Assembly: GCA_021613535.1 (NCBI GenBank)
Contig: CP075493.1
Location: forward strand, 62,001 to 126,000
Source of the DNA: Adineta vaga
Taxonomy: Eukaryota; Animalia; Rotifera
Direction of reading: 5' to 3'
DNA: 64,000 bases
Both the position numbers and the translations under genes were made by a program. Positions within the stretch are counted from its first letter, which is position 1. Each line of letters starts with the position of its first letter. Of the stretch, positions 32,940 through 58,038 are shown piece by piece. The notes beneath the pieces are model-generated. The model searched no databases, was not told the origin of the DNA, and saw only the letters and a program-made list of their open reading frames with translations.

Positions 32940-34788
32940 CTAAGTATATTGATATAATTGAACTATTACTCTGCACATTGGTTATCCATCGTTTCTTGAT
33001 TATCATCTGAAACTGGTTGTGCCATGTTTTGCTGAATTTGGAAATAAAAGTGTTTTTATAATAAAATCATCACAGCATGTTTTCAACAGTTACCTTTGAC
33101 TTTCGTTCTTGACAACAAATTCTTCTCCGGCATTCTCTCCTTCGCTCCTCGTATAAAAAATTAGATAATTTCGCACGTAATATGTCATTAAAACATTGTT
33201 CCATGAGTACCGAATCTAATCGAAATTTAATACGAATTGCTTCTATAATTACATTTAAATTGATTGAAGAAATATAATCAAAAGATTCACCAGATATTTT
33301 TACCAATTAAAATGTTAAATCTTTCATGATCAAGCGATGGTCGACGAAAATGTTCTCTTTCTGGTGGAAGAATATGTGTTTTAAGTTCTTCCTGAGAGAA
33401 CAAAATTTTTAAAGTTCGTCTAGCAAAATCGATAATATCTTTCGCTGGTGTATGTAACAAGTTTCTGCTTCCATACATCTAAATGGTCGAAAGCAACAAG
33501 TTTTCGTTTGACTTGAGAAGCAATTTATATTACATACGTATTCGGAAGGGAAATTTTCACCATTTTCATTTCTATATTGATCTAAAACTTTGGAACTCTA
33601 TGAAAGAAAAAGTAAGCTAGTTTCATTTATCATAACTATCGTATCATTCTAAACCTGAATGTAATTGCTCTCGCAATAAAACGCAAATTTTCTTTCCATT
33701 CGTTTAAGTGTTTTGTTGATCATATTTTGTTGGAGAATCATTTGATTTTCAATACGATTTAATGAATCTAATTATGAGAAACAGGCAAAATCAAATAAAT
33801 TTGAAAGGCATTAAGGAGATTATTACCATTTGAATTTGTTTCATTATCAATTAATAGATCTGAATCACAAATTCTTTGTTTATTTGGTTGGACTTGATTA
33901 TATAGAGCTTTCAAAAGGAATATTATTATTTTACAAAAAATACTCACAATTTGTATTGTCTACACGTTGTCGTTTAGGCTTACTATCATTTACAACAGTT
34001 TGCTTTCGTTTTGTTTTATTCGTGCTTGATTGATGTTTTTGTTTCGAGGTGGTAGTTGGACGAGTAATACGATCATCTCCAAAATCAACATCTAAATTAC
34101 GAAGAAATAAAGTGTGGATTATTTGCGTTTGATGAAAAATGCCAAAGAATAAAATAATGAGTAGGAAAACGTCGAAAAAAGAAAATACCCGTGGAATTTT
34201 TCTTTTTCTTTTCTCAACGTTTTCTTATATATTTTTATTTTACGTACCTTCTTCATTTGGTTGAAGATTAACACGAGATGCGTCACATAAAATAGTTTGA
34301 TGGTTAAATGAAGATATATCATGTACTGAATCGTCCTCTTGAACATTAATCAAGTAATCATTTCCATCAATCATACCATTATTAAAAGTTTTGACTAAAA
34401 CTTAACTAATAAATATTATATAGATACTAAAGCAGGATACTCACAACGTGTATTTTCAACAGAATCTTGTTGAGAATTTCTTGTTATCTTTCTTTGTTTT
34501 GTTTCGCAACACTCCAAAGTTCCTACAAGTAGATCGTTAATTGATTGGCAAATGTAAGAACAATTAAAAATACTACCTGAAGTAATAATTGTTGCGACTG
34601 TCTTTTTACCGTGAATATTTAATGTAGCCTTATTACCGGATATGTTGTAAATACTGCTGTAGAGAGCTATATTATATGAATTAGTAGATTCGAAATGTAG
34701 TAAAAAAATGACTCGGTCGATCAAATTGATCACTAGGTGAAAGCCTTGTAGGTGGTCGAATAACACGTTTTTCTCGTTGTGTACTCAT
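32940..34788 (-). CDS. Spliced accessory gene with C-terminal BEN domain (some lesions)
   Basis: Start MSTQREKRVIRPPTRLSP; C-terminus DFARRTLKILFSQEELKTHILPP....RPSLDHERFNILI|EAIRIKFRL...LRAKLSNFLYEERRR, a BEN-like pattern. Confidence 0.65.
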
Positions 34789-35000
34789 TTATAAAATATT
34801 TAATCTATAAAAAAAGATCCGATGATGAAAGACAGATAGAACAATAATGTTCTAAGTATGTTAAAATATACGTAAAAACATATTTAATTACTAGTGATTC
34901 ATATCTTAATTGATAACATCTTAGTATCATACATGTTGACATCGAAAAAACATTACATTTTATCAGTATATCTGAAGAGAACACCATACTTTATTCGTTT

Positions 35001-38000
35001 TCAATCATGTTCGTGATACACGGAAACTGGGGTAACAACAAGCGTATCATCTTCTTCAATGACTATGCACATTTCCATGGAATTGAGATTATCAATCAAA
35101 TCAAATCGACTTGATGATTTATCCAATACGAAAAACAATGAATCAATAGGTTTCGATAAAATACTATAATACTTTGAAGAAAGGAAATAATCAGAAAAAT
35201 TATTCTTTATCGTATGCCGATTAAGAATTGCACATTGCTTTTGATTGTAGGACATGAATACTTTGATAACACCAAATGTGTTGTTGTACTTAACAAAGTA
35301 TGAAATAGATGATTGTCTTTTGTCATATGTTAATGAATGATAAACAACTTGCTTATTATTTTTGAATCGTCGATAAAATTTAAGGCAATTGTCTCTTTCT
35401 TTGCAATTACATATTGTTGAATGAATATTTGATATTGTCTTAACATAAATATTATTGTAAATGTTGCTTAAGATGAATTCATATCCACTAATATTTATCT
35501 CAATAAGATCCTCAGGTATGATCGGGCTGTCAAAAACACCTTCAGATGTTGAAGTTTGAGACGCTGATGCATAAAATTTTTTCTCATTATATAGAGCAAA
35601 ATCAATCTGAAATAAGGAAAGACATTTCCTGTAAATAATCTTTCTTAAATAATCACTTAGTATTGGATTCTTATATTGTCACAGTCATGTGATTTCAATG
35701 GTTGCCTTATACATAAATAATTCTGGTAAGATAAACGATTGGTTATAAACTTGTTTAATAAAAAAGAAACGAAATAATTGTTTCAGGAATGCTTTTTTTG
35801 CGTAATTATCGAGAAAATGTTTTACAGACTAAGAGCATCTCCTGTGGAGGCTTCCGTGACCGTAAACTACAGCATATATTAACATAAATAAAATCTCACT
35901 AATGTTGTTGTTAGAAAACTATGCTTTTCAAAGATTAAAGAATTTAGCAATCTGACAATATGAGTCTCACTGATCTAGGAAAAAACGACAAATATATGTA
36001 AGGGAAACTTACATTCAAATAGAAAATAAGTTGGTCACCCCAGTAAGTAGTCCCGTGCTTCAACTTTGACACAAAGCCCATAAAATCTTCTTGAGAAAAT
36101 GTGTTAATGTTAGACAAACTACCATGATTTCTATAAAGTTGCGAGAAATGATAATGGATGTGAAGTACAAAGTTTTGTAGACCAGAATGGAACTTGTCAT
36201 GATCACGATAGAACGCTACCAACAATGTATGTGCCACATTTGCTGTTTGTTGACCAAATATACGACGACCATGAAGTAGCTAAAACAAAGAAATATATTT
36301 GACTCAATTATTCAGGATTAGATGATAATACAGAACAGAATAACTTTTTTATCTTTCTATTCAATAGACATATATTATTAATTGATGAATTTCAAATGCA
36401 TATTTGCTATTTGTTATTCTATTAAAGTCATTAGAGATTAATGAATGGAATACGATATGTATACGTAAAAGGAATAAGATTATTTCCTATTTGTCTTAAT
36501 ATAAAAAATAATTCTGCAATAAGTCAAGAACATAATCACAAAAATCAACAATCCAATTGAATCTTGACTTTCTCCATGGCAAAGTATCTCAGCTATCAAT
36601 AAAGTTCAATTCGTTCGAAAGGACTATTCAGACAGCTTCTTAGTTCATTTGAACGCGGTTTGTGAACATGAACTGTGCTACTTCAAATAATCATCAGGTA
36701 GAAAAATGCATGGACATGTACTTTTTGATACTTCATACATATTTAATTAAAAGTCGCAAACGTATATGGTAATATCTTGCTAGGAACGGTCTTATATTTA
36801 ATTTCAAATAATATGTTAATATGCAATATTCAACTCATACACTTTTGCATAATCTTCAATCAGTTTAATTTTACTTAAGCGAATACCTGCTACAAAAATT
36901 CCAATATGTGCCACAGTATCAAGAGGAAGCAATTTGTAAATCATCGGTAAAATGCAGAAAAAGAAGATATTTCGCATCTCCGTGACTCTAAAATGGAAGT
37001 AAAAGGTAAATACATAATTCTGATATATTCCTACTTTAAATATGGTTGATCAAGTACTTTTATTTTCCGATTGAATATATGTGGAAAACGTTGACTATAA
37101 ATTTTTTCATCGAGTTGAGTACGCTGTTTAGGTTTCATATGATTTCTATATAGAGCAAGACATAGTGCTTTTGCATGACCCAAAAGGGGTACATGCAGAT
37201 AATCAACTATTACAGATGTAGGCAAAGGAATATCAACAACATTTTCCAAAATCGACATCCGATGACGTCCATTGATGGTGTCTTGAAAATATCGTGCCTT
37301 CCTCGAATCCATTGCAAAATCATATTCACTTCTCATTGAAATATTTTCATCGCAAAGATATTGTCTCTTACTATTTTTGTGCACACCTATAATTTTACAA
37401 AACCAGCAGCAGTTGTAACCAACATGTGAGTTGTGATTTAATATCAAGTTCAAGGCCGGTGTGTCACCAATAACTCCATACACTTTTATCATTATTCGTT
37501 CACCTACCCTTGATGGGAATCCTACAAAGAAACATAATGTGAGAATAGTTTTGTCTTTATTGAATGAAAGATTTTAATGAGAATTTTAAGAAACTGCACA
37601 GTATTAATGTAGCATTTGTGAATAGATCATACTAAGACGAATAACTTCTAACAGATTGATTATTCACTTTATTATGAATACAGAGTATTGTATTTAATTT
37701 GTCATTCTGGAATTGTTTCTTTGCTAACTGATCATATATTACGGGCTAATTCTATAGTATTTGACTGATGTATATGTTTGACAATGAGAAAATCGCGTTC
37801 TATTGGCGAACAGCGATTTACAAGCTAAAGAAACAATGCCGCATCACCTGAAAAGTTGACTTTAAAAGGATATGAAACGATATCTGGACAATCTGTTTCG
37901 CTAATCATCAATTAGGTTTGATGACATCTACACAATAATAGTTGAGTAGAATCTGATAATGAATAAATTCATAACCGTTGAAAGAAATCAGATTGCCTAT

Positions 38001-39624
38001 AGCATGAATGATACGATAACGCGTGTGTTATCATGAAATATAACAGATATATGCATTCTAATGGCGACTCAATCTCCTTCGAAAACTTTTAAATTTGTCA
38101 ATTTTATTATTTACATAAACACACCATTACTTTCGATATTTTCTTAAAGTTTATGATTACCCTTCTTCGAAGTATGTCTTCTCTCTATGTATAATACTCA
38201 CTAAATTCGATGAGTTTATATGAAATAATTTACTTCACATTAATTGTCTCCATATATTTAAAGATCTTTTAGGAAGAATCTTTTTTAATGTGGTTAATAT
38301 ATAACCTATTTAAGTAAGTATAAACACTTGCCGTTTATTTTCAAGTTTTTTAGTTGAGAAAAACAACGATGAAGCCGTAAATTAATATCTGGTTGACTTT
38401 TGGCAATCCATAATGAAAGAATAACATTGTTTTGTCGCTGTATGCGAACAACAGGAGGCAGTTCAACAATTGAGCAACTTAAAATCCATAGTTTTTATGT
38501 CAAAGATTTGCCTAGTGGGATTCCATCTAGATGAAGAATAATACTTATAAAAGTGTGATGAGTAGAATCATAAAGAAATTTGTAATTTTGGTTATATATA
38601 ATATCATTTGATTCATCATCAAATGGTTGATTCGTGAATTGTTCACGATATGAATTGATAACAGAAGATAATCGATCATAAACTTGAGTAAAAAGAGCTT
38701 CTTGTAATGAGTCAAAAATTGTAGCTAAATGTTTCGGCTTATTATCTGGACAATTCCAACATTTTTTCGAGGACATCAACAAATCTTTTCCACATGAAAT
38801 ACATACAATTCGTTTCACAAATAGATTTTCGACTAGAAAAACAATAAATGGTATTTAGTTTTTAAAGGAATCGTTAAAAAACATTCTTGAGAAGAACTCT
38901 TTCGTGAACACTTTCACGAGTTTAAAAATGTGTCTTTCATACAAAAATGATGTTTATTCCAACTAATTGACAACTTATTAAAACTCGAAAGAAAAAATGC
39001 AAAATCGATCAAACTACCTGATAATAAAATGAGTAATCCAGAGTAACTTTTTGGAAATGTATTTGGTTGTGGAAGACTTGAGTAAATCAAACCAATAAGA
39101 TAATTGGCATGACGTTTTGAAATATTCGCTTTACGAATAAAAGTAACGAGTGTTTTGGTGAAAGAATAACAGCTTCCAGTTGTATATGGATGAAGAGTTA
39201 AATCAGATATCTGTTGACGAAAAAATATATTATCAAAATTTGAACTTTCATAAGTAGAATATATTGATTCAGTTTCACGATTTTCTCTTTGTTCGTCGAT
39301 ATTAACTAATGATGATGCAGATGTAATATTAGTTTTTGTTGAAGCCTGTTCGTCAAGCAATGTGAGATTTTGTGAAGAGATTTTATTTGGCATTGATTCT
39401 TCAGTAGAAAACGTGTCACATAATGATGTACTTGAAGAGCATTTCAAACGCGCCATACGTCGATAAAAATTATTTTGTTTCAAACGATTTGCTTTTTTTC
39501 TACTCGCATATTGTAGAGCAATTTCGATTTCATGCAGAATATTTTGTTCTATGAAGAGGATAATTTGATTGGTTTTACCTAAAACTATAGAAATTTTGAG
39601 AATTTGTATTGATAAGGTATTCAT
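35001..39624 (-). pseudogene. En/Spm-type (Transposase_21/TnpD-like) transposase, multi-exon, with frameshifts
   Basis: FIRKANISK..LPQPNTFP; CISC...CWNC; ISIILHLDG..(fs)..ELPP; IGDTPA...HVGYNCCWFCKIIG; IVDYLH; LHIHYHF..YRNHGSL...TFSQEDFMG. Confidence 0.85.
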
Positions 39625-41015
39625 ATTATGTCGCGAGGAAATCTCATATTTAATGAAATGTGAAGGTAGTATCTTATTCTCTTTTTCAGTTAGTGACTAG
39701 ATGATAAGATGACTCTTTAGTTACTTGATTTTTAATTGGAGAATATAATATATTGATTAGAAATCATTTTTGCCAGATGGCAGAGCGTTTCGATATGATA
39801 ACTTTTAATATATTATCATGCATGATTATTTGTTATTATACTAATTTTTTTTCAAAAAAATGAACTTAATCGCAAATCAGAAGCTGTGTTTTTCTCCATT
39901 ATAGTTTGATTAAAGACGCTAGTATATTTAAGTGTAATGCATATCTGTTCTTCCAAATACTTGATTAAGAATTCAAGACGATAGAAATAAAAATATTATG
40001 TCACAAATAAAATAACGTCAATTCTTTTTTAAATTACTAGTGTATATTATGAACTTGGATATTATTTAAATGGGCGCTTTAATCCACGCATTCATCGTAT
40101 ATTCAGATAGCGTTTACTACTCATTTAACGTATTTTCGAATTAAAAGCAATTTAGAATCCTACCAGAATCGGACACTTTTCATACAATACAGAATTTTGT
40201 GGATAAGAGCTTGATTAATATATATATATTATAATATTATAATTCAAGCGGGGGTCACATCATTTTCATTGAAAACCATTGAATGATCAATAGAGAGAAT
40301 CGTTTTCAACATGAATATTTGTAAGCGAATGTTCAAATCTTTCGAGTGATCACATACAATACACGTATTCGTCATCGAAATTCGTGACTGATCTCAATAT
40401 ACCATTCAGTCACTGGATGTGGCAATATTCTAAAATATTCCTTTACTTGGAATGCAGGTTAATGAAGAAAAATCTGAATCAATGATTACAGATGTAAAAA
40501 TTCTCAGAAATCTCTATTTATAAATCCGTAACCGTAGAGGAACCGGCGGGATACGGTCCGTATCCTGTCGTCCGGAAAAGATCAACCGATCCTTCTCCAG
40601 GAACCGGTCCGGATCCGGTGATCGTATCCAAAAACTCAATCCGCGCCAGGGATTCGCCTGGAACTGTACCGGAAACGGATACCGGGATAAGAAAACTCAA
40701 TCCACATCCGGGAATCGAACGGAACTGTACGGGAAACGGATGCCCGGATACGAAGTTGGAATCCTGCTGCGGGAAATCACCAGAAATTCCTGGATCCCGC
40801 CGGTTCCGACCGTACCAAATTGACATGGGAATATAACGTAATTCTCCTTATTGTTATTCAAAGTAAAATTGTTATCTTAATCTAGCAAATATATATATCA
40901 AATAAAAGTCTACATTATGCGACGATATGAATATATCATTCTATTGTAGATTTATAATATTTCATATTTAATCAATAATTACACTGTCATTATTCAAACT
41001 ATCGTACAACTCAAT

Positions 41016-42412
41016 ATGGAGACTTCACCAAATCAAACATTAAGTAAGATTTTAATCTATATTAAGAGTAGATTTTGAACGACAGATCAATACTAGTTAA
41101 AGTTCTCTGTCCATTTAATCATAACATGGATGTCTTTTCATATTCATCGTTTAATCCATTTTTAGACGCTCCAATCAGTAACTTTGATTATTTGTCGAGG
41201 CAAATAAAACATGAATTGTCTACTCATCCCTCGTCCTCATCATCCTTACCTACTTCTGAAATGCTACATATCCATGATTGTACAACTGTAACAATCAAAG
41301 AGAAACCATGTGAACCTCTTAGTTCTGTCGAAAGCACAAATCATCTGGATCCATTGTTTCTTAAATCTGGATTTGATGGTAAATTGTTTGTTCATCGATG
41401 ATATCATCTCACCGTTCTTTCATTTATTTAGATGCAATGAACATAGCATTACAACATAAATTCAATTTAACTATTCCATCACAAGATGAAGATCCATGCA
41501 AGAAGTTTCGACTTGAAAGGAAATGTTTTGCTATCACTTGTAGATCAAATTTCACCAGTGAGATATAGTTGACACATAATTATCAAATTAAAACTACTAA
41601 AATATTATCTTTTAAATAGAAGAAGATATCTCCCATCATATTCAAAATGAATTCAATGAAAACTTACAATATATTTGTATTGCACGTTCAGATAAACCAC
41701 AATTTTATGGGTTGCCTTCTATATATTACATTCAAATAAATCTTCATAAAAAGATCAACAAGAAGAGATTGTTTTTAAAAGAAATATCAGGTTAGAATAA
41801 TTTCATTTGATTTATATGAATGTTGAAGATATTTTTGAATAGCATTCTGTTAATAAACTGTTTTTAGGAATGAATTGTAATTATCAAGTAACACGTGATG
41901 ATCGAGCTTGGAATGCATTCCTGAAAAAAGGTTTCTCTTTTGATTAAAGTTTTTCTTCATTAAATAAAAGCTTATATATATATATATATATATGTTTATT
42001 CTAGTTGGCGCATATATTGAATATGGACAATTTCGATCAGTAAGATCACGTCTCGGTATAGAATCGACTCGGGCAGGTAGAAATAAATGTAAAAAATTGA
42101 GAAAAGGAACTTTGGTACAAAATCAAAAAATTGAAATGAAAACAATGCAATTAATTGTAAAACAACTCGTCGAGATCATCACCACGAATGTAAGAACATC
42201 TATTGATAATGCAATTCAACTTGCGACTCGATTCATACCACATGAATGTGAACATGAAAAACAAATGTAAGTATCAATAATTTTATTCTTTTAGATGTTT
42301 CAAGAAATTAACTCATGCTTTTGTCTATCATTAATAGGCTTCTAGAAAAACTGAACTCTGCTTACAAATTCTTACAAATCGATCCCATGCAATAACTATT
42401 TGATTTTCAATG
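41016..42412 (+). CDS. Rep-like (CRESS/geminivirus-type HUH) protein, catalytically degenerate, no helicase domain seen
   Basis: Spliced: KFRLERKCFAIT|..LQYICIA...SIYYIQINL..|CNYQVTRDDRAWNAFLKK|..YIEYGQFRS. Motif I is present; motif II HxH reads IYY and motif III YxxK reads FLKK. Confidence 0.7.
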
Positions 42413-42648
42413 AAACGGCCAGCAACGTGCATTTCGGGAACCATTTATCTGATATGCTTAAATGTACTCTGTTTGTCTCTTTCAAAATAATTCTGATTTT
42501 CTGAACATAATCTTGTATAGTCAATTGTTCTATAATAGAATTTGAAAAAAATGTAGATCTTGTATATATATATATATATCAACACTTTAATGAACATAAA
42601 TAATATGATTCTATTAAAATATTCTAGATTAAATTACAACACACACTA

Positions 42649-43020
42649 ATGGCATCTGATTTGTGGCGCTTAGTTCAGATTATGATAGATTCAGCCATCG
42701 AAGAATTTGTATTAACACCTGATGATAAAAGATCATCAACAACTGAAGATTCCAACGAACAAACAAGCAAATATGATCAACCATCAAATACTGATCGGCA
42801 ATTTTGTTTCATCATCTTCAACAATCCAAAATGGTCTCATATACTTCGACGACACAGAGAAAAGGTGCATGAAAACGAAATAAAGGCACTCAACTCCATG
42901 ATGTATATATTTTTTCTAGATTGCACAACAACGAGCACAAACTGTTACATCTGATCCATCAACTGCAAAGAGAAATGAAGAAAAAAAGGAGCTGTCTTTG
43001 GATGATCGTTTTACTGCGCA
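42649..43020 (+). CDS. Small co-oriented ORF of unknown function in the Terminon-like array
   Basis: 101-aa ORF with a probable short intron; no recognised motif. Confidence 0.3.
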
Positions 43021-43433
43021 ATTACGACAACTATTCGATGATTATATGCAGCATACAAAACGACGATATCCTATTAAATATTTTATTGATTTTACTGAAT
43101 GAAAGAAGTGAATTTTGTTCTAAATTGTCTTGAAAAGAGATATTGATATACATATATATCAAAATAAAAACTAATTGAAAACTCTATGTCGAAATCCATA
43201 TTCGGACATCATACATGTATAACTAAAGAAACATCTTTAAAATATTTCTGTTTCGTTTTGGATTAAAATAAAAATAAAATAAACAATACTGATTGAAGCA
43301 CCATTCATTCATCGTAATTTAATTTTAACAATGAGCGAATATTCATTCTATAAGATATATGTATATAGCACTATTGTACTGATTTAATAAGCTACTAACT
43401 TATTGTATTCGTTTTCTTTTTCAGTGGCGTGAT

Positions 43434-46400
43434 ATGCAATGGTGTGATAACATTTTTGATGTCATCGATGACAATGAAGATATATTGGAATATACACCAG
43501 AAGAATTAAATCGATACTATATGTCGGGTCAACTTCGGTCAAACTTTGAAGAAGATAATGACAATAACAATGAAGAAATCACGTCAGATATCGATACGGT
43601 ACTGTTCGCTGATCACACCGATGATAATCAAGTAAACAAAGTTTCAGTTATAAATTGTAGATAACTTATGGGTTTCTTAATGTTTAGTCAGCCACAATAA
43701 CAAATGCAGACAAGAAAATAGAAAACAAGGCGACACACAAGGAAGAAGACATTCTATCAGAAAAACTAAGTCAATTATCCACAGATAATAATTACGAGCA
43801 ACCTATTGCCAAATCTAATCGAAAAAGACGACGAAGTACATATAGAAGTCTGAATTTAGTTTCAAAAAAGATTAAATTTACTCAAAATAATGATACAAAG
43901 GATAAGAGTACAAATGATAATGTTAAAGAAGAGAAATCTGATGATGTACCAGCATATTTATCACTAACAAATATATCGTTTCTTCATGTCATTCAACAGA
44001 TTCAAAATACAGAAAATTCAATTGATATGAAAGATTTGCAAATAATAGCATTGTTAATGCATCGTATAACTGCTAATCGTATACAAAAACAGATTAACAG
44101 TGTCTATCTACGATCCGGTACTGGTAAATTAGATGATTCTAGTTTCGATTTAATCGAAATCGATCGACGAGTTTGGCCTAAAGAAGTTAAATCAGATATG
44201 CTAGCGAAAATTGCACAATCGAACATTACTACGGCAACAAAAATCAATTCAGATAGTGAACAACTCGATTTTGAAAATCTTGTCAATGAACGTCTACAAC
44301 AAATCAATGAAAAAATTGAACAATATACTCAACAACTCATTGACAAAAAGAATCATTTAATCGGATTTACATCATCAATAGAAAAGACAATCATTCAGTA
44401 TGTTCAACGCTATGGCATTATTCCACTTCAAATGAAAAGAGATCTAAAAATAGCTTTACTCAAACATGATTACAATACCATCATACTTCGAAGAAAATAT
44501 GAACAAGAAAATCCAAACGAATATCATGTAAGTCAAGTAGAGCTAGTCGAAGAATTTCATAGAACTAATATCAATATTCTTTTATCATTCAGACTGAAAT
44601 AGCCGAACAGCTATGTACTACAAAATATGAGTTGGAGAAATCGAAACGTGAATTAATTGAATTAAAACAAAGAGTTTTCTATCATAAACTCCCTGCTTTT
44701 GTCAAAGATATCGAACTATCACCACCATCGTCTACTATGTCTGCAACCACAACAGCATCCAACACTGTTCATAGTCAGTTATTCAACAAAAGAAACTTGA
44801 TCTTCTTGCTGCACATATAGCCAAAGCAGAAATCAAATACTATCAAGCAGACAGTAACTTCAATTCTGAATATACGAAAATGCTGAATAATCATCGAAAT
44901 CTTGTACGAAACAAAGGAATGACTTCAGCATTAAGCGATTTATTGGAAAAGCGACTCACCAATATCACTGATCGATTACGAGATATACATTACTATCGAA
45001 TCAATTTCTTTCTTCGAAGTTCTTATAGTGATTTGGAAAACATATACAAACAAATTGAGCCTCAAGAAAATACGAATATTAACGTGTTCTTTTCAAATGT
45101 AATTAGTTATACATTACACGGATTGAATCAAAAACAAATACAGTTACTTAGTCGAGGACCGACTTATGTTCCACCTTGTCAATCACGACTCAAATTTTCG
45201 TCGAAATCAACAGAGACAACCATAACAGATATTGTGAAAAAGCAATATGCACCATTGAAACATCAAATGGCTAGTCTCTTTTCAAAGCATCGTGTTAATA
45301 TTGCTTTATCATGGGATGTTCATTCAATTATTTGTCAAAAGTTTACTAATCTTTTTGCTATTTCAATTCCTCATAACATTCAACAACGTGCTACTGAAGA
45401 AATGAAATTAATTCAATCGATACGATCTTCTCTAAAAACAAACAATATGATAATACGACGAACAGCTGACAATCGAAATAGATTCTATGTAGGGAACAAG
45501 ATTGATTTCGAAGCAAAAGCAAACGAATTCATGTCGAAATCTAGTGATAAATATGAATTCACAGTGACCATTGGTAATGATCAAGGTAATAATGACGATC
45601 AAGAAAAACAGCCACAAAATCCACAATATTTTTTGAAGGGAAGAATTGAAGCAATCAATTTTGCATTAGAAACGTTGGGAAAACGCAAAGCATTAGATAA
45701 TGATACGATCAACAAGTTAATAATTGATCCAGAGAAAGTTAAATTACCTTATCTCTATTTCTTGCCAGATATTTCGAAAGTGAGTATCATCTCCAGTCAT
45801 CGTTTTTTTGCTTCTCACCTAACCTATCTCAAGATAATATTCATTTTTTTAATAGGAAAACGAATTGACACTTGTACCAACGATCGTAGCACATCAAAGT
45901 ATGACATCAAATATTGGTGAATACGTTGATAAACTGATTCGACCATTTGCTGAAGAAAAGATGAAACATTTGACATTTTTTAATGAAGCTGATTTCATGA
46001 AAAAATTAATGTATTATGCTTATGATCAACGTCGTTTAAAATCAACAAGTCTCTTTTGCACAATTCAAATTACCAATTTTTATTCATTGGATAAGCATGA
46101 TACAATGATTGATACAATTATAGCTTTCTTAAAAGATAAATCAGCAAATAACACAGTCAATAAAGTATCGATCAATACAATAAAAAATCTACTACAATTA
46201 TTTTTCTATCAAAATCTCTTTACATATGAAAATAAAATTTATATGATAAAAAATGGTAGTCCAAACACGCTATCATTAACTGAAACACTAGCTAATATAT
46301 ATTTATTTGAATGGCAAAAATCCATATTGAATCAATTCGAGTACGACCAAGAATTATTTGGACGGTTAGTACAATTCTTTTTTTTCTCTATCAATATAAT

Positions 46401-47135
46401 TCGCAATGATACTCGCTATCTTTTAGACATAAAGATCACATCTTTTTCACTTGGAATAAGTCTTATGACATGCTTTATTCTTATCTACAGTCCCTAAGAA
46501 AGCAACAACCTAGTGTTAATTTTAAAATATCGATTGGATCAAATGTACATTACTTCAATGCTCATATTGAAAATAGAAAAGGTGAACTATACAGTCGAGT
46601 GTATCATGATCCAATGATACCACGTTATACACTGCCTTATGTTGTTGGTCATTCAAAAGTACGACTTAGTGACTGGCTTCGATCAGCACTTCTTCGAGCT
46701 GTCTGTTATTGTTCATCTGTTGAAGATTTTCATCAAGAACGTCTCTATCTTGAACTCACTTACCTTGTCAATGGTTATTCATTTTTCTTTGTGGAAAGTC
46801 ACATACAAAATTTCTTCGATTATTTTCAAAGAGAATCAATACGATACTGTTTAGAACAATCAAATTATCATTCATTTCGTCGACAATGGTTTGATTTTTT
46901 TGAGTTGCAAAATCAACGTTCGGAAAAACTTCAACAATTGGATGATAAGAAGCAAGTGATTCGTTTCAACTATTTCTATGATTATGGCCCAAGATGTGAA
47001 TTTAATCAATATTTTCATGAATTATGGTCGGATTATTTTAAATCGAATCCAACATTATCCAATGAAAAGTTAAAAATCCTGCTGACAACCAAGCACACCC
47101 AGTCACTCAACGCATTATTATCTTTTCAAACATGA
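43434..47135 (+). CDS. Coiled-coil domain fused to Athena(PLE)-type reverse transcriptase, catalytically dead; one frameshift at ~44790
   Basis: GT-AG introns 43632-43687, 44528-44592, 45780-45855, 46365-46426 restore the frame. PLE motifs LLSRGPTYVPPCQ, RRTAD, LPYLYFLP, YTLPYVVGHS. Motif A reads FCTIQITNFY; motif C reads R|HKDHIFFTWN. No GIY-YIG domain follows. Confidence 0.85.
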
Positions 47136-47491
47136 GATTTTGTATACTATAGATTGTATTTATCTTTGACGACCAATTCAAATGTTTTCTTGGAGGCTAT
47201 GCACTTTGTAACATGATTAGAATTGATATTAATAAAATATGAATAAAATAGATCATGTGGTATACGCTGATCTTTTTCGTTTGAATTTTCTTTCAATCAC
47301 TTGTTTTCTATCATTTCTCTAATACTTTATGTTCGATTTCTTGTTTCAGACACATTTCTAGCGAATCTGGTCTGCGATCTATTAAGCTTCGAAAGCCTAT
47401 CAGTCTGCATTTCAATTCAAACAAAACTAAACATCCAAACAATCGAGTACTTCATCATTGAAACCATTTCAAATCTGTCGATAAAAACACA

Positions 47492-48296
47492 ATGTTACAA
47501 TCGAATTCAAATCTATCCAGTAATGAACGAAAACGACTCTTAAATATACAATTAAGTATTTTACCAGCATTCACTCCACTCAATGGCTGGCGAGTGTATT
47601 GTATTAATCAAACAACTGATCCATCATTATTGCACTATCTTATTGAATTAGCACGAAAAACTGTCAAATATACGATCGATACGGAACATGATTATTATAC
47701 ACATGAAGCAGCATTGATTCAAATTGAATTTATACGTCGACAATCAGTTATCCTTTTGATTGAAACATGCCATTTACCACAAGCATCAACTGTCACATTT
47801 TGGTTAATCAAGTCACTTTTTAAAATAATTTTTAATCCATCTAATGCCATTTACTCGTGGGGTGATGCTGTAAATGAATTAAGTCGATTTACACATTACA
47901 ATCTATTTTCCTGTTCAAGTCTTTATCAAATGAATAACATCGATATACAAAGTGGCTTCAAAATATGGTAAACTTTCATTCATGATTGTGGTCTCCATTT
48001 ATACGGAGATGATAATGAACTATGTACATGTCCACACCGACCAATAAAACATAAAAACAATCAATGGTCACTTCAGAAAGCAGTTGCTTATGCATTTCAT
48101 GAATTTCTAGATAAGAGTCGCTGTAAAAGTAAATGGCGCCAACGACTGACAAGCACGAATCAAATACGACAGAAAATTTGTAATGAATTAATTCGATATG
48201 CAGCTAATGATTGTTTAGCTGTCACCAAACTACAAATGCTAGTCGGTTTCAATTACACCAAAGAACAACTTGACATGTATAATCGAAACAAATGAT
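47492..48296 (+). pseudogene. DEDDy-type 3'-5' exonuclease with one in-frame stop (47969-47971)
   Basis: ExoI YTIDTE, ALIQIEF, YSWG...EL, IDIQ, then same frame CTCPHRP..WSLQKAVAYAFHEFLDKS...LIRYAANDCLAVTKL (ExoIII YxxxD). Confidence 0.85.
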
Positions 48297-48639
48297 TTAA
48301 ATAGTAAGCCATGTACATATAATAATATACGCATAGCTATCGAATTCTTTCTAGAAATAGCAACCATATGGAACATTGAAGAAATTTCGAACATATATGT
48401 TTTATCATTGTATTTGTGTTTTGTTGATGTTTTTGAAAAAGAAAAAATAGATGACTATAATATGTATTCGTCGTTGCGTTTTTTTATATTCATTTCTTTT
48501 ATTTTTAGATAGCATCCTGAGTATATCTATTTCTACGTTTCAGAAAAAAATGTCTAGTACAAGAGCAACGTACCAAGACGGAAGTAATTACAATTATGAC
48601 ATCTTTTATTTTGAATTGAAATAGCTCGAATTTTCTTTT

Positions 48640-49741
48640 TCTTTTCAGGTGATGACAAGCAACAACAACAGATCGAGCGGGTAAATATAGAAAACAAAGT
48701 TAATGTATGTCCAAAATGACTATTGTTTCTTACCAGCAATCGGATCCATTGTCAATCACCGACACTACGAAAACATTCATCGAAAACGATCAGCAAAAAT
48801 TCGTCAATAATCAACAAGTTGAAGGAATAAGCACAGATGTAAATTTAATTGATTTTTTGCGATGTTATATCCCACTTGAACGTTGTAAGGTAAAATATGT
48901 AATATTTTCGATTAGGAAGTAGATGAACTGATATCCATATTCTCTTCTCATTTGCATCATTACTTATAGGTGGAAAACTATGTGATTAATCATAGTGACA
49001 CTCAAAGTACAACTTTTCGAAAAGATGCACCACTAACCCAAGAAGAAGAAGATGGAAAAGAAACAACAAAAGAATTAAAACAAATAAGTCAATCAAATCA
49101 ATTCGCTACATCACGAACGGAATCAAATGAAGATAAATGATGTGGAACATTATTCGACTTCGTAGACTTTAATCCGTTGGAAAACTACATCTATATAGAT
49201 TTCTTTGAATAAACTTTTATATTAAACAAGAAGACGAAAGAGATATTACTTATCAAATAAACTAGTTTTCTTTCATTTTAGATCTGAACTCATATTGGTT
49301 TCATTTCCTGTAATCATCTTATTTCAACCGCTTTCGTTTTTAAATGGCTTCCAGCAGTAGCTCAACGTCAGTCTCAGACAAAATGAATTCAATCCGTAAG
49401 AAACTGTTACAAATTGCCATTGTGAAACTGACCTATATTTTGATTTATAACTAGATACGAACAAGCCATCAAAAATGATGGACATAGAGGATATTGTGAC
49501 ATCTCCAGTACAAACTGAACAATGTCCTAGTTTAGCATCATCAATAATACGGACTCCAAGTGCACCATTACCACGAGCTTCAGCATCAGTTGCACAAGAT
49601 CCCAGTCAAACACCGCGACGTCAAGTGGTCACATTTCAGTTACCAGGAGAAGTAGATCCAACGATTCAATTACCCAATATGTCATTACTATGGAGATCTA
49701 TCAAGAATATGTCTCTTGAAAAGAAACCTGGCCAAAAATGA
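48640..49741 (+). CDS. Two short spliced co-oriented ORFs, unknown function
   Basis: ORFs 48707-48922 and 49475-49741 with flanking GT/AG signals; low-complexity products. Confidence 0.3.
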
Positions 49742-50636
49742 CTCAGATGATTTCCATGTCAATTTAATTGTTTTTGAAACCTTTACTAGTAACTAGTGTA
49801 TCTTTTATTGGTTCATGTCTTTTTTCGTCAAAATCTCATTGTATTTCGAACTTTATCTAAATCTGTTCTTCGTCTACTACATATTATAAACATTCGAAAT
49901 ATCATCATTTTTCTTCTAACATATTTCACCTTTCTTTAACCATATGTTTATCGATTCTAGATATAAATATATCTTTATCAGCAATTGCCAAACAGCTCAA
50001 TCGTACAATTTATCAGTCATAAATGCATTTACTTGAACAAGTAAGTAGCTTGAACATATGTAGGACAAGTAGAATGAGATATCGTTATATTTGAAATTCT
50101 CATAAACGTAGATGGTGATCCATTTGACAAAAAATCTATGACATAGATTTCAATAATCTCAATAACAATACCATATCAAATACCTAGGTGAGTACTGGTC
50201 GGTTAGAATATCATAGAAGAATTTCCCAGATATATTTTATATATATTTATTTACATTAGATAAAATCATCGATCTACCTTGAACATTCAAAAGTTATTTG
50301 GATGATGACAGACAATTACCATGAAGCCATACGACTGAAGGGAAAATAAAACATCCAGCTTCATTTTATCTACTCCATTGGTGTAATCGTAACTGCTGTT
50401 TTGTGAAATGTAACCTAGTATGAATTCAAAATGTCTGTCGCAATCCATAGCACATTTATTTTTTTTTGAAAAGCTGGCAGTTTTCTTTCGACTTCTATAC
50501 AAAATTATCAAAAATCATCTGAACGATTTGATCTGTGTGAAAGACACGAACTAATGTCGTAGCTCTATCTTTTTATACACATTCGTTTAAAGTTCTTTTC
50601 GATCGAATTTATCTTGATTTGCTTTTCTTTTTTCAG

Positions 50637-52102
50637 ATTGAAAAGAATATTTTTAAATCGGACGATTTATTACCTTTGCATCACACACAAATGACAAAAG
50701 ATGGGTACCAATCGAACCGATTAACACAACACAATTCAGGAAGAAAATCTCATGGTAACCGGAGAATACAAAGATTCAGAAGAAAATGTCGTTCAAAAGG
50801 AATGACTAAAGAAGCAATCGAAAAATTAGTGGAAATTCAAAAGACAACTTATTCAATTCATCAAAACAATCGAAATCTAGAGAGAAAATATATGAATAGT
50901 TATTCCACAAGTTGTACTGATGATGATCTCAACATCGTATCGTCAATGTTGTTTGAAAACCATCAGGTATGACGATAATAGGTAACGAAATAAAGTTATA
51001 TAGTATTATTTTACATATAGACCTATCTTCATGAATATCAATCTAATAAAGAAAACATACCAACCGGATCAGCTGGTGGATCATTATCGATATTGACCCC
51101 AATAATATCAACAGGAACTTGGAGTTCACCACCATCTTCTAAAACATATCATAAGGCAGTTCACCGATATTCTTTATCTACAGATCATTGGAAACAAACA
51201 TCAATGCTAATACCTAACTATTATCAACTCTCTTTCTTTGAATTCAAAGATTTACTACTTAACATAATTCAAGCAAGCAATCGGCAGCAGATTCAAGAAC
51301 GAATAACAAATTTTACCGCACTACAAATCATACAACAGCGTGCTCAACTAATGTGCAAGGTTTCCCAATTAAGAATTGAAAATGATTATTGGAATTATAT
51401 CAGCAATATGGCGGACATACCCATTGTAATTTGGCTATCAGAAGTTTCTAAAGACGTCACTAGACAAAATTTCATTAATTGGGATCATACTAAAACAAAA
51501 AACAATATTCAACAACGTCAACAAATGATTCAAGATAAATTGCAACAAGCTGAATATAATTTGAATAATCATTTACACCAACAGCTAGATCCGTTATCTT
51601 TTCAAGCGAAAACAATAGCGCTTCCAGATCATCCAATGACTATTATTTCCGATGCTCTGGCTCATCTGGTAGAAAATGGTCTACATTATTTTCGTATGAA
51701 CTTTGAACAAAAGAAAATCTTATTAATGTTTGATACTAATGATGCACAACTTGTCAAATCATTCTATGATTTAAATCCAACATCGCAACAGGTTTCTATT
51801 CATTTATTACATAGTTTTTATTTTATTTTATTCTTGTTTTTCATTATATCTTAGATTTCGACTGCCCAAAAACTTTGGCGAACTAAAATAAAACAATGTC
51901 AAAAAACCGTTTGTCATCAAAAGAAAAACTATCCATTGCCAATGTTATATGATAGTACAATCAATACAGAGAGCCAAAAGCAGCAAAATGAAGTACCTAA
52001 AATGGGATCATTTACTCCGACCATGTCTACTATTGTGGAAGCTCGTCTATGCAATATGGAAGAGCGCATTCATCAAATGATACATTTTTCTTCTACTTTT
52101 TA
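50637..52102 (+). CDS. Terminon-type coiled-coil ORF with basic N-terminal motif (partly degraded)
   Basis: GRKSHGNRRIQRFRRKCRSKGM; PNY; Q-rich heptads; FEQKKILLMFD..D..LVKSFYDLNPT..Q|I..AQKLW. Ends at an intron position similar to the CC part at 44027-44527. Confidence 0.7.
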
Positions 52103-52959
52103 ACATAAACCTTTCTTCTCGTAATATGCATCTACACCGAATATTGTGTCCTCTATATAGATGGGGGAAAACTGTCAATGAAAGTTTGAATGTATAGAAG
52201 TTTTCATTTCTTTCCCTTATTTGAATTGGTGTACAACTTCAACATGTAAACTAAACTTCTCTCTCTGTTCTAGATATAATTAACATTTAACATTTTGTAT
52301 ATTCTGGAATCAATTATCGAAATCTACACCAAGGAACGCTTTTTACGTACCACTAGTATTGAAAAAAGTGTGAAAACGAAAAGAAAACTTTCTATTATCC
52401 ATCTCCATTTCAAATTATATCATCAAGGAATCAACCATTTTAATACATATCTCATAGTTTCAAACATCTCAAAAGTAAGTGTAAGCAGGAAAAGTAAACT
52501 ACATACATAATCATATACTCATACCTAAATATTTTCAAGACATCTTATCTTATTACGCACTCCCTTGACTAACAATAAGATTTTCCCAACATGCTCAGCT
52601 CCAACTTACATCTACTACACTGAATATGAGACTATAAAATTTATTTTATCATATACCAAACATAGAGGTAAGTATAGCTTCGGTTTTATATGCAACGAAC
52701 GTTACACTACTTCTTCTCTTATGAGCTTTCAGTCACATTTCAGCCTTAAAATATTAAAAATTCTCTTTTGAGTTTAGACACAAATTTTCAGCGATCTGAA
52801 CAGCTGGATCTTCAACTAAGGTGAGGCATATAGTTATAACATTTTCAATCCATACAAACCCCTGTAAATGTAAAAATTGTTTTTGTTTCGATTTAATTTA
52901 TTTTGATATTTCTTTCAGATAGCATTTCTCAGCAAGTTCACAGATACCATTTTGAAGAA

Positions 52960-55900
52960 CTTGGGGCTAAGCTGGATGCTACCAAGCGGGTCCACAGGTT
53001 GCGGATAGTAGAACGGCCATTAGTATGATGGTTAGCTGCGAATAAGATCAAGCGATTGATCAAATAAACAGTCCCGGACAATACTCAGCCTTCTTGCCAG
53101 CAGGGTGTGGTGGGGTTTTGTTTGGAACCAAAACTCTTATAAAATGCCACAGAAACCCAAAGACGACAGGATGACAGGGCGAGTATAGGCCGCCAGAAAC
53201 AAGGTTCCTCCCGAACCGAGATTTCATAAGCCTTATCCTGGGCCGATGGAGCTCGCTAGCCAGGACTAGCAAATTCATCAAATGGAGAAAACCATTCCAA
53301 ACCGGCGGAAGGCAAGGGGAAACCACCGCTGTACACTCCCAAGCACAACATGATAAACGTCAATACTTCCAGTCAAGATAACAGCGTGAAGGGGGTTCTC
53401 AGAGAGAACAACTCGCTCGGTAGAGGTGGTCATGTACGACAGGTGACCCTCGATCGTCAACAGGCTACTGTCCCAATCAAGATCTCACTCAAAATAGGAA
53501 CATGGAATGTAAGAACTATGTTTCAGAAAGGAAAATTAGACAATATAAAGAACGAAATGGAACGGATGAAAATAAATGCGTTAGGCTTATCTGAAGTCAG
53601 ATGGCTGGGTGCTGGATCTTTTACAACTGATAACTTTCTTTTATTATACTCTGGAGGAGACAAACACGAGAAAGGAGTAGGAATGCTTCTTGACAAAGAA
53701 ACCTCCAAGAGTTTGCAAGGCTTTTGGGCGATTTCAGACAGAGTTCTTCTTGTAAAACTCCACAGCAAACCCTTTAACACTTCATTAATTCAATGTTACG
53801 CACCAACAGCCGATTATGATGATGACGCAATCACGAGCTTCTATGAAGATCTAGACAAAGCCTACAAACAATGTAAGTCTGATGATATCATTTACGTAAT
53901 GGGTGACTTCAATGCAAAAGTGAGAGATAAAAGAATTGGCAATACAGTAGGACCTTTCGGTTTAGGAAACAAAAATGACAGAGGAGATAACTTAATAACT
54001 TGGTGCCAATCACATAATCTCGTAATCACAAACACGTGGTTCAAAAATCACCCACGTAGACTATGGACATGGCGAAGCCCAGGAGATCGGGCAAGAAATC
54101 AAATAGATTACATTATGGTCCCTCATCGATTCAGGAATTCAATCATTTTCTCTAAAGCATTTCCTGGAGCGGACTGTGGTAGCGACCATGTCCCAGTTAT
54201 TAGCAAAATTCGAGTAAAACTAAAAAGAATAAATCATCCACAGAAAAATATAAAGCTTCAAGTTCACATTCTGAAAACTGATGCAGATCTGAAAGAAAAA
54301 TTCCGCATAAAAGTGCAGAATCGTTTTGAAGCACTAGATCAAATAACAGAAACCGAGGTATTGTGGGAACAGATAAAATCATCCATACTAACATCTGCTG
54401 AAGAAATAATTCCAAAAACTCAATTAAAGAAAAAGAAAAGATGGATGACTAATGAAATCTTACAACTAATGGAGCAAAGACGACTGAAGAAGTCAAACCC
54501 CCACGAATACCAATTGATAGACAAATCAATCAAAAAGAAATGTTCAGAGGCAAAAGAGAAATGGTTGAACGAACAATGTTCAGAGATCGAAAGTAAGTTG
54601 AGTGTAAACACCAAATTCGCTCATCAAAAGATCAACGAAATAACAGGAAAATCAAGATGCACCAGTTCAGGTTGTATCAAATCGAAAAATGGAACCGTTC
54701 TAATGGAAAAAGGTGACATACTGAACAGGTGGTCAGAATATATAGAGGAACTCTTCGATGATAATAGAGCTTCTAAGCCTAACATAAAGAAAAATATAGA
54801 AGGGCCTCCAATAATGAAAGATGAAGTAAGACTGGCCATAAAATCAATGAAAACAAACAAAGCAACAGGGCCAGATGGAATATCCATCGAAATGATTCAA
54901 TGTCTCGATGAATTAGGTGTAGATGTCATGACAAAACTAATAAACAAAATATATGATACGGGTGAAATTCCGGAAGATCTAACAAAATCAGTATTCATAG
55001 CACTTCCAAAAAAGCCTGGAGCTACTGAATGTGAATTACATCGCACAATCAGCCTCATGAGTCATATCGCAAAAGTTTTGCTTAAGATTCTGATAATGCG
55101 TATGAAAAATAAAATCACGCCAGAAATCGCAAAAGAACAATATGGCTTTATGCCTGACAAAGGCACCAGAAACGCAATCTTCATCCTTCGAATGATAATC
55201 GAAAGATCAATTGAAGTCAAACATGACTTATACCTATGTTTCCTTGACTACACAAAAGCTTTTGATAAAGTCAAACACGACAGTCTATTCCAAATTTTGG
55301 AGAAACTCGATATTGATGGCAAAGATCTACGATTAATTCGAAATCTTTATTGGGATCAAAAAGCCGCCATGAGAGTAAACAATGATATAAGTGAATACAC
55401 AAACATCAAGAGAGGTGTCAGACAAGGATGTGTTCTATCTTCAGATCTCTTCAACATCTACAGTGAAATGATACTCAGAAACCTAGAAGATGTTGAAGGC
55501 GTAAAAATTGGAGGATACAACTGTAACAACCTAAGATATGCAGAGACACTGTATTGAAGCACCGAAGCAGAGTTGCAGAAGATGATTAATATAGTCTCGA
55601 CAGAGAGTACAAAAATGGGCCTATCACTTAATGTCAAGAAATCAGAATGCATGAGTATTTCAAAGAATAAAATTTCACCGACATGCAATGTAAATATATA
55701 TGGTGCACAAATCAAACAAGTCACTCACTTCAACTACTTGGGATCAATCATAACCTCAGATGGCCGATGTGATGAAGATATCAAAAAGAGAATCGCTCTC
55801 TCCAAACAAGCTTTCCAAAAGATGAGTCCGATTTTGAAAAACAGATCCATATCGATCAATACTAAAACAAGAGTTCTCAAATGTTATGTATGGTCGATTC

Positions 55901-56326
55901 TTTTGTATGGATCTGAATGCTGGACAATCAATAAAGAGATGGAAAAACGCTTAGAGGCTACTGAGATGTGGTTTCTCAGAAGGATGCTCAATGTACCTTG
56001 GACTGCTAGAGAAACCAATGCGTCAATATTAAAAAGAACGAAATCGAAAAGATTTTTAATCAATACCATCCGTTATAGGCAACTGAAATTCCTTGGCCAC
56101 ATAATCCGTAAAGGTTGCATGGAACATCTGGTATTGAGTGGAAAAATCAATGGAAAGAAAGATAAAGGCCGACCAAGAATCAAATATCTTGAAAACATGA
56201 ACCTTTGGATTGAAAAACAGGGTTACACGAAAATAGGCTTTCTTCACGCAGCTCAAGATCGGAAAAATTCGCGTATCATGTTAGCCAACGTCTGTAACAG
56301 ATAAGGCACCTATCTGATCTGATCTG
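52960..56326 (+). mobile_element. Near full-length RTE-clade non-LTR retrotransposon, 11-bp TSD
   Basis: TSD ATTTTGAAGAA at 52949-52959 and 56327-56337; 3' tail (ATCTG)3; RTE-type 5' UTR (GGTTGCGGATAG...TAGCTGCGAATA). Confidence 0.95.
53350..56304 (+). pseudogene. RTE APE-RT polyprotein broken at the YADD motif
   Basis: IGTWNVRT, YAPT, MGDFNAKV, QIDYI, GSDH (APE); KATGPDGI, FLDYTKAFD, GVRQGCVLS, NNLRYA-(lesion, TGA)-...YLGS. ORFs 53350-55557 and 55573-56304 are in the same frame. Confidence 0.93.
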
Positions 56327-56439
56327 ATTTTGAAGAAAGTTAATTAAAAATGAATTCTATTTCACCAATCAATCGATTTATTCAAATGAATTCATGTCAT
56401 TTCTACAGAAAAAAGAATACTCAAGATTGTTGGCTTGGA

Positions 56440-56754
56440 CCCAGGTCGAAAAATCCGAGCCGGATCCGGCCGGAACCAGAACATTTCGGTCATTTCATGG
56501 AAGCAGGATTCCGACCCGGATATTTTCGAACTTTTCCACTCGCTTCTGACTAACTTCCAGTAAGTTCCAGTCGGAAAACGACTGGAATTCGCCAGAACAG
56601 TCCGAGAAATTCCGATCGGAATACTGCTTCCACTCTCCTTTGTTTTCCGGTTGGAACCGTTTGGAACTAGCTAGAACCGTCCGGAATATCCTCGGAAAGG
56701 CGTGATTTCTGGCAGGTTCCTTTCGGATCCGGAGGCCGGAACGTCCGTCCTGGG
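56440..56754. mobile_element. CMC-like MITE, CCCAGG termini, 2-bp TSD (GA)
   Basis: GA|CCCAGGTCGAA...GTCCGTCCTGGG|GA; CCGGA-rich interior. Confidence 0.88.
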
Positions 56755-57946: not shown

Positions 57947-57996
57947 TGCCACCTGAAGATAGACCCTTTAGCAAGGTCGAAACTATAGTCGTGGTA
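57947..57996 (+). ncRNA. Minimal type I hammerhead ribozyme (Penelope-like element type)
   Basis: Stem I TGCCAC/GTGGTA; core CTGAAGA (57953-59); stem II GACC..GGTC; GAAA (57979-82); palindromic stem III CTATAG; GTC cleavage triplet (cut after 57990). Two extra nt (TA) before stem II. Confidence 0.8.
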
Positions 57997-58014
57997 GCTA
58001 TATCTTTATATATA

Positions 58015-58038
58015 CACACCCACACCCACCCACCCACC
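58015..58038 (-). repeat. Short interstitial telomeric-type repeat (TGTGGG/TGGG on minus strand)
   Basis: CACACCCACACCCACCCACCCACC at the junction between the hammerhead and the Gypsy pol. Confidence 0.65.

What the first reader, a model, noticed from the sequence alone, without database searches (positions are those of the whole stretch)
43434..47135. Intron-containing CC-RT fusion with YxDD changed to HKDH and motif-A Asp changed to Gln
Splicing four canonical introns yields a ~1150-aa protein with one frameshift. The RT fold motifs are conserved through the thumb, but two of three catalytic aspartates and the motif-B GxxMG are replaced, and an intron sits immediately before motif C. Many substitutions focused on the active site within a long open frame suggest an old lineage selected as a non-catalytic RT rather than recent decay. 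Catalytically dead Athena lineages are known in Terminons; their function is not.
Basis: partly seen in the sequence, partly recalled or inferred. Interest (0 to 1): 0.75.

Follow-up and report, generated by a model that had tools for sequence, protein, structure and literature searches.

The report
Conserved dead reverse transcriptase in Terminon
This is a broken copy of a telomerase-shaped reverse transcriptase gene in a rotifer telomeric retroelement, whose whole rotifer lineage has lost the copying residues yet stays conserved, so it likely serves as an RNA-gripping scaffold and not as an enzyme, a kind of gene probably already described.

Summary
The four introns, the frameshift and the changed motifs (A: Asp to Gln; C: HKDH; B: GAMG lost) are real, and a fifth, 5' intron was missed (ATG at 43331). 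The loss is family-wide: 97 of 103 relatives scored (window included) lack the D..DD triad, as do all 47 at 40% identity or more; they form one side of the tree against six intact Athena-type RTs. The dNTP-binding Lys and Arg are lost too. The family is under purifying selection (dN/dS about 0.25-0.6) and keeps a predicted telomerase-like ring. This copy is itself a pseudogene: the frameshift is a copy-specific deletion, the next gene (DEDDy exonuclease) has a stop, and a LINE has inserted. It lies in a Terminon-type unit ending in a hammerhead plus ACACCC repeats at 57947-58027, with no active Athena RT in the window. Best reading (0.5): a pseudo-RT scaffold for the element's RNA, mobilised by an active RT in trans. 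No RNA evidence was obtained. Dead Athena lineages are, by recall, already described (paper not held). New member of a known kind; interest 0.38.

The parts
43331..43360 (+).
   Evidence: N-terminus matches P0008 and P0005
43361..43424 (+). Fifth (5'-most) intron, 64 nt, GT..AG, phase 0
   Evidence: predicted, no RNA
43425..43631 (+). Exon 2: acidic N-terminal segment with a conserved FD..D...D motif
43632..43687 (+).
   Evidence: same junction in gene model P0001
43688..44527 (+). Exon 3: basic NLS-like stretch and helical, predicted coiled-coil region
44528..44592 (+). Intron 2, 65 nt; same position in L001, L003, L004, L005, L008
44593..45779 (+). Exon 4: end of the helical region, TERT-RNA-binding-domain-like N-terminal extension, start of the fingers
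44755..44790 (+). Copy-specific deletion that shifts the frame (a paralogous contig has 28 more nt here)
45780..45855 (+). Intron 3, 76 nt; same offset in 9 metagenome loci
45856..46364 (+). Exon 5: motif 2 (Arg lost), motif A (Gln for Asp at 46066-68), motif B (GSPNT for GGAMG)
46365..46426 (+). Intron 4, 62 nt, splitting the Arg codon before motif C; same position in 8 loci
46427..47135 (+). Exon 6: motif C (HKDH), motifs D and E, thumb/CTE-like domain, stop
41800..43100 (+). Two upstream co-oriented spliced ORFs of unknown kind; similar sequence lies upstream of the dead RT in L016 and L018/L020/L021/L023
   Evidence: tblastx; bounds approximate
47492..48295 (+). DEDDy-type 3'-5' exonuclease ORF with an in-frame stop at 47969-71 (open in paralogue P0001)
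48650..49140 (+). Small spliced ORF; a similar peptide follows the dead RT in Rotaria models P0018, P0020, P0024, P0060, P0061
   Evidence: likeness to the Rotaria models read by eye; bounds approximate
50638..52104 (+). Stand-alone coiled-coil-type ORF; its N-terminal basic motif matches the N-terminus of the active CC-RT P0132; no RT follows it
52960..56327 (+). Secondary insertion: APE+RT LINE (RTE-like by recall), broken in motif C, with a 10-bp target-site duplication; the empty site exists in run X1
57947..57996 (+). Minimal type I hammerhead ribozyme motif with palindromic stem III and a 2-nt insertion in the core
   Evidence: RF00163, E 0.0095 in a 351-nt scan, 21.3 bits, under the gathering score of 34; only hit in the window, 0 in 100 shuffles
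58016..58027 (+). Two ACACCC telomeric-repeat units: inferred 3' end of the Terminon unit, joined to a 5'-truncated Gypsy-type integrase region

Best explanation
The ORF is a frameshifted copy of a bdelloid-wide pseudo-reverse-transcriptase carried by Terminon retroelements, and intact copies likely work as a non-catalytic scaffold that binds the element's own RNA while an active Athena RT made elsewhere would do the copying. Shown: loss of the catalytic and dNTP-binding residues across the family, purifying selection on the rest, location in a co-oriented cassette ending in hammerhead plus telomeric repeats, and decay of this copy. Predicted: a telomerase-like ring (RNA-binding domain, fingers/palm, thumb). 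Inferred: the spliced mRNA makes a ~1170-aa protein that oligomerises through its helical N-terminal half, enters the nucleus, and grips the long unspliced Terminon RNA or its duplex with the G-rich telomeric overhang. That would hold a template of tens of kb in a particle and in register for an active RT. Selection would act on the master elements that carry it, because units with a working scaffold are copied more often.
For: 97 of 103 rows with all catalytic columns lack the triad. Motif-A Asp is kept in 3 of 97, the last Asp of motif C in 6 of 97, the first in 58 of 97. The motif-1 Lys is kept in about 1% and the motif-2 Arg in about 4% of the dead rows, against 6 of 6 intact rows. Eight Arg/Lys positions are 85% or more conserved among the dead rows, four of them in the N-terminal extension. 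Dead and intact rows are split by one branch, SH-aLRT 100, with deep subclades among the dead. Selection: of the 40 listed differences to paralogous contigs, 21 are silent and 19 replace a residue, pN/pS 0.23-0.36, p at most 0.0013. Window against L001 gives dN/dS 0.25 over 706 codons, and pN < pS in 268 of 268 pairs with pN above 0.01. The model of the P0005 RT stretch has pLDDT 86. The top 14 Foldseek rows are all telomerase RTs; VIA Z 17.7, rmsd 5.3 over 400 residues, with the alignment starting in TERT's RNA-binding domain. The gene keeps its introns and its cassette neighbours across loci. L008 holds three diverged dead RTs in 18 kb and no active one. No active Athena RT lies in the window.
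Against: No call shows RNA binding, oligomerisation, expression or splicing; the scaffold role rests on fold and conservation. Conserved Arg residues may be structural. This copy cannot make the full protein. Constraint is only moderate, and it is weak among near-identical copies (dN/dS about 0.7-0.8 for L018/L019 against L020-L023, 0.64 for L004/L005; few changes). The NG86 pairs are not independent and have no transition correction. The 40 variants are the best supported of 386, from one sample. Only six intact rows root the tree, and they were the ones that reached the top 150 of 1830 hits. The window may lack an active RT only because the unit is 5'-truncated.
Confidence: 0.5

Rival explanations
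1. The pseudo-RT is an obligate structural subunit of a heterodimer with an active Athena RT, as p51 is for HIV-1 p66 (analogy recalled), and acts through protein contact more than through RNA binding.
For: The whole fold, thumb included, is kept, and C-terminal positions are 95% or more conserved among close dead rows where the intact rows end or differ. Overlaps with the best reading.
Against: No active RT lies next to a dead one in the window or in any of the 23 loci (most loci are short). Three different dead paralogues in L008 suit a general scaffold better than one partner.
Confidence: 0.17
2. It is a clamp for the adjacent DEDDy exonuclease, handing it structured RNA or ssDNA 3' ends for trimming before priming.
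For: A DEDDy ORF directly follows the dead RT in the window, P0001, P0050, L001, L002 and L009, and its acidic motifs are invariant in 61 aligned relatives.
Against: No DEDDy was found downstream in L003, L008, L010 (554 nt only) or the L018-L022 family. DEDDy ORFs also ride on unrelated LTR elements (PMC5408684, passages).
Confidence: 0.1
3. It is a regulator: a dominant-negative decoy that competes with active Athena RT or telomerase for chromosome ends, possibly useful to the host.
For: Telomerase-like ring without chemistry; long retention in both Adineta and Rotaria.
Against: It is multi-copy, stays inside mobile units, and individual copies decay, unlike a domesticated host gene. A self-limiting cargo would be selected against on master elements.
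Confidence: 0.12
4. It is still an enzyme, with a rebuilt active site (for example a metal-poor terminal transferase or annealing catalyst).
For: The first Asp of motif C survives in 58 of 97 rows, and motif A often has Lys (38 of 97), which could replace a metal.
Against: No replacement residue is fixed: ten different residues occur at motif A and eleven at the last Asp, and the dNTP-binding Lys and Arg are lost.
Confidence: 0.05
5. It is simply a decayed RT, copied passively.
For: This copy has a frameshift and decayed neighbours; near-identical copies show dN/dS of 0.64-0.8.
Against: Family-wide loss with open frames of over 1100 codons in two genera, and dN/dS of 0.25-0.6 at depth.
Confidence: 0.03

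Closest known systems
Terminons of bdelloid rotifers (Arkhipova et al. 2017, not held; described in PMC6431247 section 8, read in full, and in passages of PMC5408684, PMC5537684, PMC5072296, PMC7761336)
   Same: Co-oriented intron-containing ORFs, a DEDDy exonuclease, coiled-coil-type ORFs, a minimal type I hammerhead followed by ACACCC repeats at the 3' end, and secondary insertions.
   Different: No catalytically intact Athena RT lies in the part of the unit held in the window. The hammerhead has a 2-nt core insertion. Position on the chromosome was not tested.
Catalytically dead Athena derivatives (the 'JVX' clade; name and description recalled from Arkhipova et al. 2017, from no call)
   Same: As recalled: RT-like ORFs in Terminons with the catalytic aspartates replaced, fused to a coiled-coil N-terminus.
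   Different: Could not be compared with the named reference sequences. The passages I read in the secondary papers do not mention the dead clade, and the term search found nothing relevant.
Active Athena RTs (AthR/AthM motifs shown in the supplement of PMC8557442; P0127, P0132, P0146, P0162, P0177, P0188)
   Same: 25-30% identity over the extended RT domain, with shared N-terminal motifs and thumb.
   Different: They keep D..YIDD, G[GS]AMGS and the dNTP-binding Lys and Arg. Their N-terminal half is not detectably similar.
Telomerase RT (TERT), and Prp8 as a pseudo-RT
   Same: TERT gives the best structural match. Prp8 is the precedent for an RT core kept as an RNP scaffold after losing catalytic residues (PMC5718144, passage).
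   Different: About 10% identity to TERT, which is active. Prp8 matches less well (Z 14.6) and is a single-copy host gene.

Membership tests
Terminon unit | 3' hammerhead motif directly followed by C-rich telomeric repeats | tested here: met
   below Rfam's gathering score, 2-nt insertion, only two perfect repeats
Terminon unit | Multiple co-oriented accessory ORFs (DEDDy, coiled-coil types) | tested here: met
Terminon unit | Intron-containing Athena-related RT ORF without GIY-YIG endonuclease | tested here: met
   introns; the ORF stops after the thumb, and Pfam finds no endonuclease
Autonomous Terminon | Catalytically intact Athena RT in the unit | tested here: not met
   tblastn of 8 active-type proteins hits only the dead ORF and the CC ORF's N-terminus; so filed only as a non-autonomous or 5'-truncated unit
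Terminon unit | Telomeric or subtelomeric position, head-to-tail chains | not testable with these tools
   no genome held for this window
Active Athena/PLE RT | D..YxDD triad | tested here: not met
Active Athena/PLE RT | Motif B GAMG, motif-1 Lys, motif-2 Arg | tested here: not met
Active Athena/PLE RT | TERT-like extended RT fold and sequence kinship | tested here: met
   (fold predicted for homologue P0005, not for the window's own protein)
Dead Athena 'JVX' clade (recalled) | Catalytic residues lost clade-wide while the ORF is conserved | tested here: met
Dead Athena 'JVX' clade (recalled) | Groups with the named J, V, X reference sequences | not testable with these tools
   primary paper not held

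The most novel reading that the evidence does not exclude
Terminons carry an ancient, diversified set of pseudo-RTs, up to three paralogues per element, that act as Prp8-like or telomerase-like RNP scaffolds: a retroelement that built its particle from dead copies of its own polymerase and splits template holding from catalysis. The radiation and the loss of the dNTP site may go beyond what has been described.
Probability: 0.35. Interest if true: 0.65.

Novelty: new member of a known kind. Interest (0 to 1): 0.38.

Why it matters
Athena RTs are among the closest mobile relatives of telomerase. A dead branch that keeps the predicted TERT-like ring under selection would show which parts of that fold serve RNA handling and not chemistry, and how a template of tens of kb is held at a chromosome end. 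The finding supplies a testable set (intact homologues such as P0017, a confident model of the P0005 RT stretch, a residue list), but this locus is a pseudogene and the phenomenon is probably already in print.

Tried and rejected
No whole genome was held, so copy number and chromosomal position were not tested. No RNA holder was listed. Three guessed-RNA runs laid on 41000-53000 gave only short partial matches and no splice joint; this is no evidence either way. Complex prediction of the P0005 RT stretch with DEDDy P0208 gave no verdict (score 0.00, alignments not used). Pfam finds no RT family on the window's exons or on the 28 rows of A1, and RVT_1 on only 1 of 3 active relatives tried. The PDB sequence search found nothing. 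The ESM Atlas gave only unnamed or DUF8422 clusters, mostly rotifer, under 0.9 for the N-terminal half. An Rfam scan of 30000-64000 missed the hammerhead, and its minimum-energy fold is not unusual (z -0.64); it appeared only in a narrow scan chosen after I saw the motif. No hammerhead pattern was found in the 23 loci. A programmed frameshift was rejected, since homologues are in frame there. The primary Terminon paper was not held. Seven literature searches found no held paper whose passages, as far as I read them, describe the dead clade; that is no claim that it is not in print. Earlier scan findings held nothing on this gene. Rows dropped: of 205 proteins, 115 spanned motifs A-C; 13 of the 116 rows (window included) had gaps at the scored columns and were dropped. 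Two of these (P0191, P0205) are active-type, and P0186, also with YxDD, was not among the 115.

Full report
Observation. The window is AT-rich eukaryotic DNA. A gene model named by its source as Adineta vaga (P0003) is 100% identical over 67% of the exon-4 query, so the species is very likely A. vaga. A fifth intron (43361-43424) and an ATG at 43331 extend the gene, and the new N-terminus matches P0008 and P0005. Introns 2, 3 and 4 recur at the same codon in metagenome loci: 5 of 23, 10 of 23 and 8 of 15 scanned, many loci being too short and the L009/L018 group lacking introns 3 and 4. No RNA evidence was obtained.

Is the loss family-wide? Two homologue searches gave 36 and 37 proteins; every one that carries an organism name is from Adineta or Rotaria. 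A search of the 50% representatives with the RT stretch of P0005 gave 1830 hits, of which the best 150 were listed. Of 205 proteins pooled, 115 spanned motifs A to C; with the window and after dropping 13 gapped rows, 103 were scored. Six keep D..YIDD and are 25-30% identical to the window; 97 do not, including all 47 at 40% or more. The replacements vary: ten residues at the motif-A position and eleven at the last Asp of motif C, while the first Asp of motif C survives in 58 of 97. Motif B's GAMG is gone, and the motif-1 Lys and motif-2 Arg, which bind the incoming dNTP in RTs (established knowledge), are kept in about 1% and 4% of dead rows. The tree (quick IQ-TREE, LG+G4, 302 columns) separates dead from intact rows with SH-aLRT 100 and shows deep subclades among the dead; one origin depends on the root. 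The intact rows resemble the AthR motifs printed in the supplement of PMC8557442.

Is it selected? Among the 40 best-supported of 386 differences between the window and paralogous contigs of one sample, 21 are silent and 19 replace a residue, against about 20-29% silent sites: pN/pS 0.23-0.36. NG86 on metagenome loci gives 0.25 for window against L001 and 0.32 against L002, and pN < pS in all 268 pairs with pN above 0.01, of 275. Against this, near-identical copies give 0.64-0.8 on few changes, and the pairs are not independent. AlphaFold2 on the P0005 RT stretch (633 aa, 28 rows; 72% identical to the window in the last exon) gives pLDDT 86 and pTM 0.81. Telomerase RTs fill the top 14 Foldseek rows and the top 13 VIA rows (Z 15.7-17.7, rmsd 4.1-6.9, 324-415 residues), and the match begins in TERT's RNA-binding domain. 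LINE-1 ORF2p follows at Z 15.6 and Prp8 at 14.6.

This copy is broken. Contigs of four runs cross the frameshift unchanged, so it is real, while a paralogous contig has 28 more bases there and so keeps the frame; P0001 and P0005 read through as well. The DEDDy ORF downstream has an in-frame stop that P0001 lacks. A LINE with a 10-bp duplication sits at 52960-56327, and its empty site exists in X1.

Context. On the + strand lie two small upstream ORFs, the dead RT, a DEDDy exonuclease, a small ORF, and a stand-alone coiled-coil-type ORF whose N-terminal motif matches the active CC-RT P0132. After the LINE comes a minimal type I hammerhead (57947-57996; RF00163 at 21.3 bits, under the gathering score of 34; sole hit of my pattern in the window, none in 100 shuffles) followed by two ACACCC units and a truncated Gypsy-type integrase region. 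That is the 3' structure described for Terminons (PMC6431247, section 8). No intact Athena RT lies in the window or in the 23 loci (most are short). L008 holds three diverged dead RTs in 18 kb. A DEDDy ORF follows the dead RT in P0001, P0050, L001, L002 and L009, but not in L003, L008, L010 or L018-L022.

Mechanism. Everything needed for nucleotide chemistry has been released from constraint, while the ring and several arginines, four of them in the N-terminal extension, are kept. The most economical reading is a non-catalytic RNP scaffold that binds the element's RNA, or its duplex with the telomeric overhang, and leaves synthesis to an active Athena RT in trans (0.5). Rivals are a structural subunit of an RT heterodimer (0.17), a decoy or regulator (0.12), a clamp for the exonuclease (0.1), a rebuilt enzyme (0.05) and passive decay (0.03). 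None of the binding steps is shown.

Known or new. Terminons and their accessory ORFs are known. I recall, from no call, that Arkhipova et al. 2017 describe a catalytically dead Athena clade (JVX); the paper and its supplement were not held, and they bear directly on novelty. I read section 8 of PMC6431247 in full; passages of PMC5408684, PMC8557442 (and term hits in its supplement), PMC5537684, PMC7943196, PMC8885841, PMC5072296, PMC7761336, PMC5718144 and PMC3846280; none of those passages mentions the dead clade. Verdict: a real, well-supported pseudo-RT family; this locus is a decayed member in a non-autonomous or truncated Terminon unit. New member of a known kind, interest 0.38.

Noticed in passing
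L008:205-13780: Three diverged non-catalytic RT paralogues, co-oriented within 18 kb, each with the intron before motif C, and no active RT among them.
   Followed up: partly
window 57947-58190: The hammerhead/ACACCC end joins directly to a 5'-truncated Gypsy-type pol (integrase, 58190-59410), as expected if the unit attached at a telomere-healed break inside that element. The C-rich run may partly be the Gypsy's own sequence.
   Followed up: partly
window 17008-17190, 22739-22765, 25079-25090: Short G-rich telomere-like GGGTGT runs on the + strand, opposite in sense to the Terminon's repeats; at 17008 they face degenerate C-rich copies about 100 nt on.
   Followed up: no
window 19836-21830 (-): Open 664-codon hAT transposase frame with a BED finger.
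   Followed up: no
window 34400-39700 (-): Fragmented minus-strand ORFs without a Pfam match, by eye like a decayed DNA transposon, at the 5' side of the Terminon cassette.
   Followed up: no
window 40500-40830, 56430-56760, 28450-28930: GC-rich short elements with internal repeats (CCGG-rich), probably MITE-like insertions.
   Followed up: no
window 26609-27620 (-): FG-GAP repeat protein with 147-nt repeats.
   Followed up: no
window 56905-57600 (+): Small spliced ORF with a hydrophobic, transmembrane-like stretch just before the hammerhead; no Pfam match.
   Followed up: no
window 60848-61846 (+): 332-codon frame that by eye resembles a UDP-glycosyltransferase N-terminus; no Pfam match at E 0.01.
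   Followed up: no
window 62344-63288: Nested long inverted repeats (164, 112 and 61 nt arms, 82-85% complementary).
   Followed up: no
L009, L018-L023: A dead-RT subgroup lacking introns 3 and 4, with motif C further changed (FHTQ, YHHL); L009 is followed by two DEDDy ORFs.
   Followed up: partly
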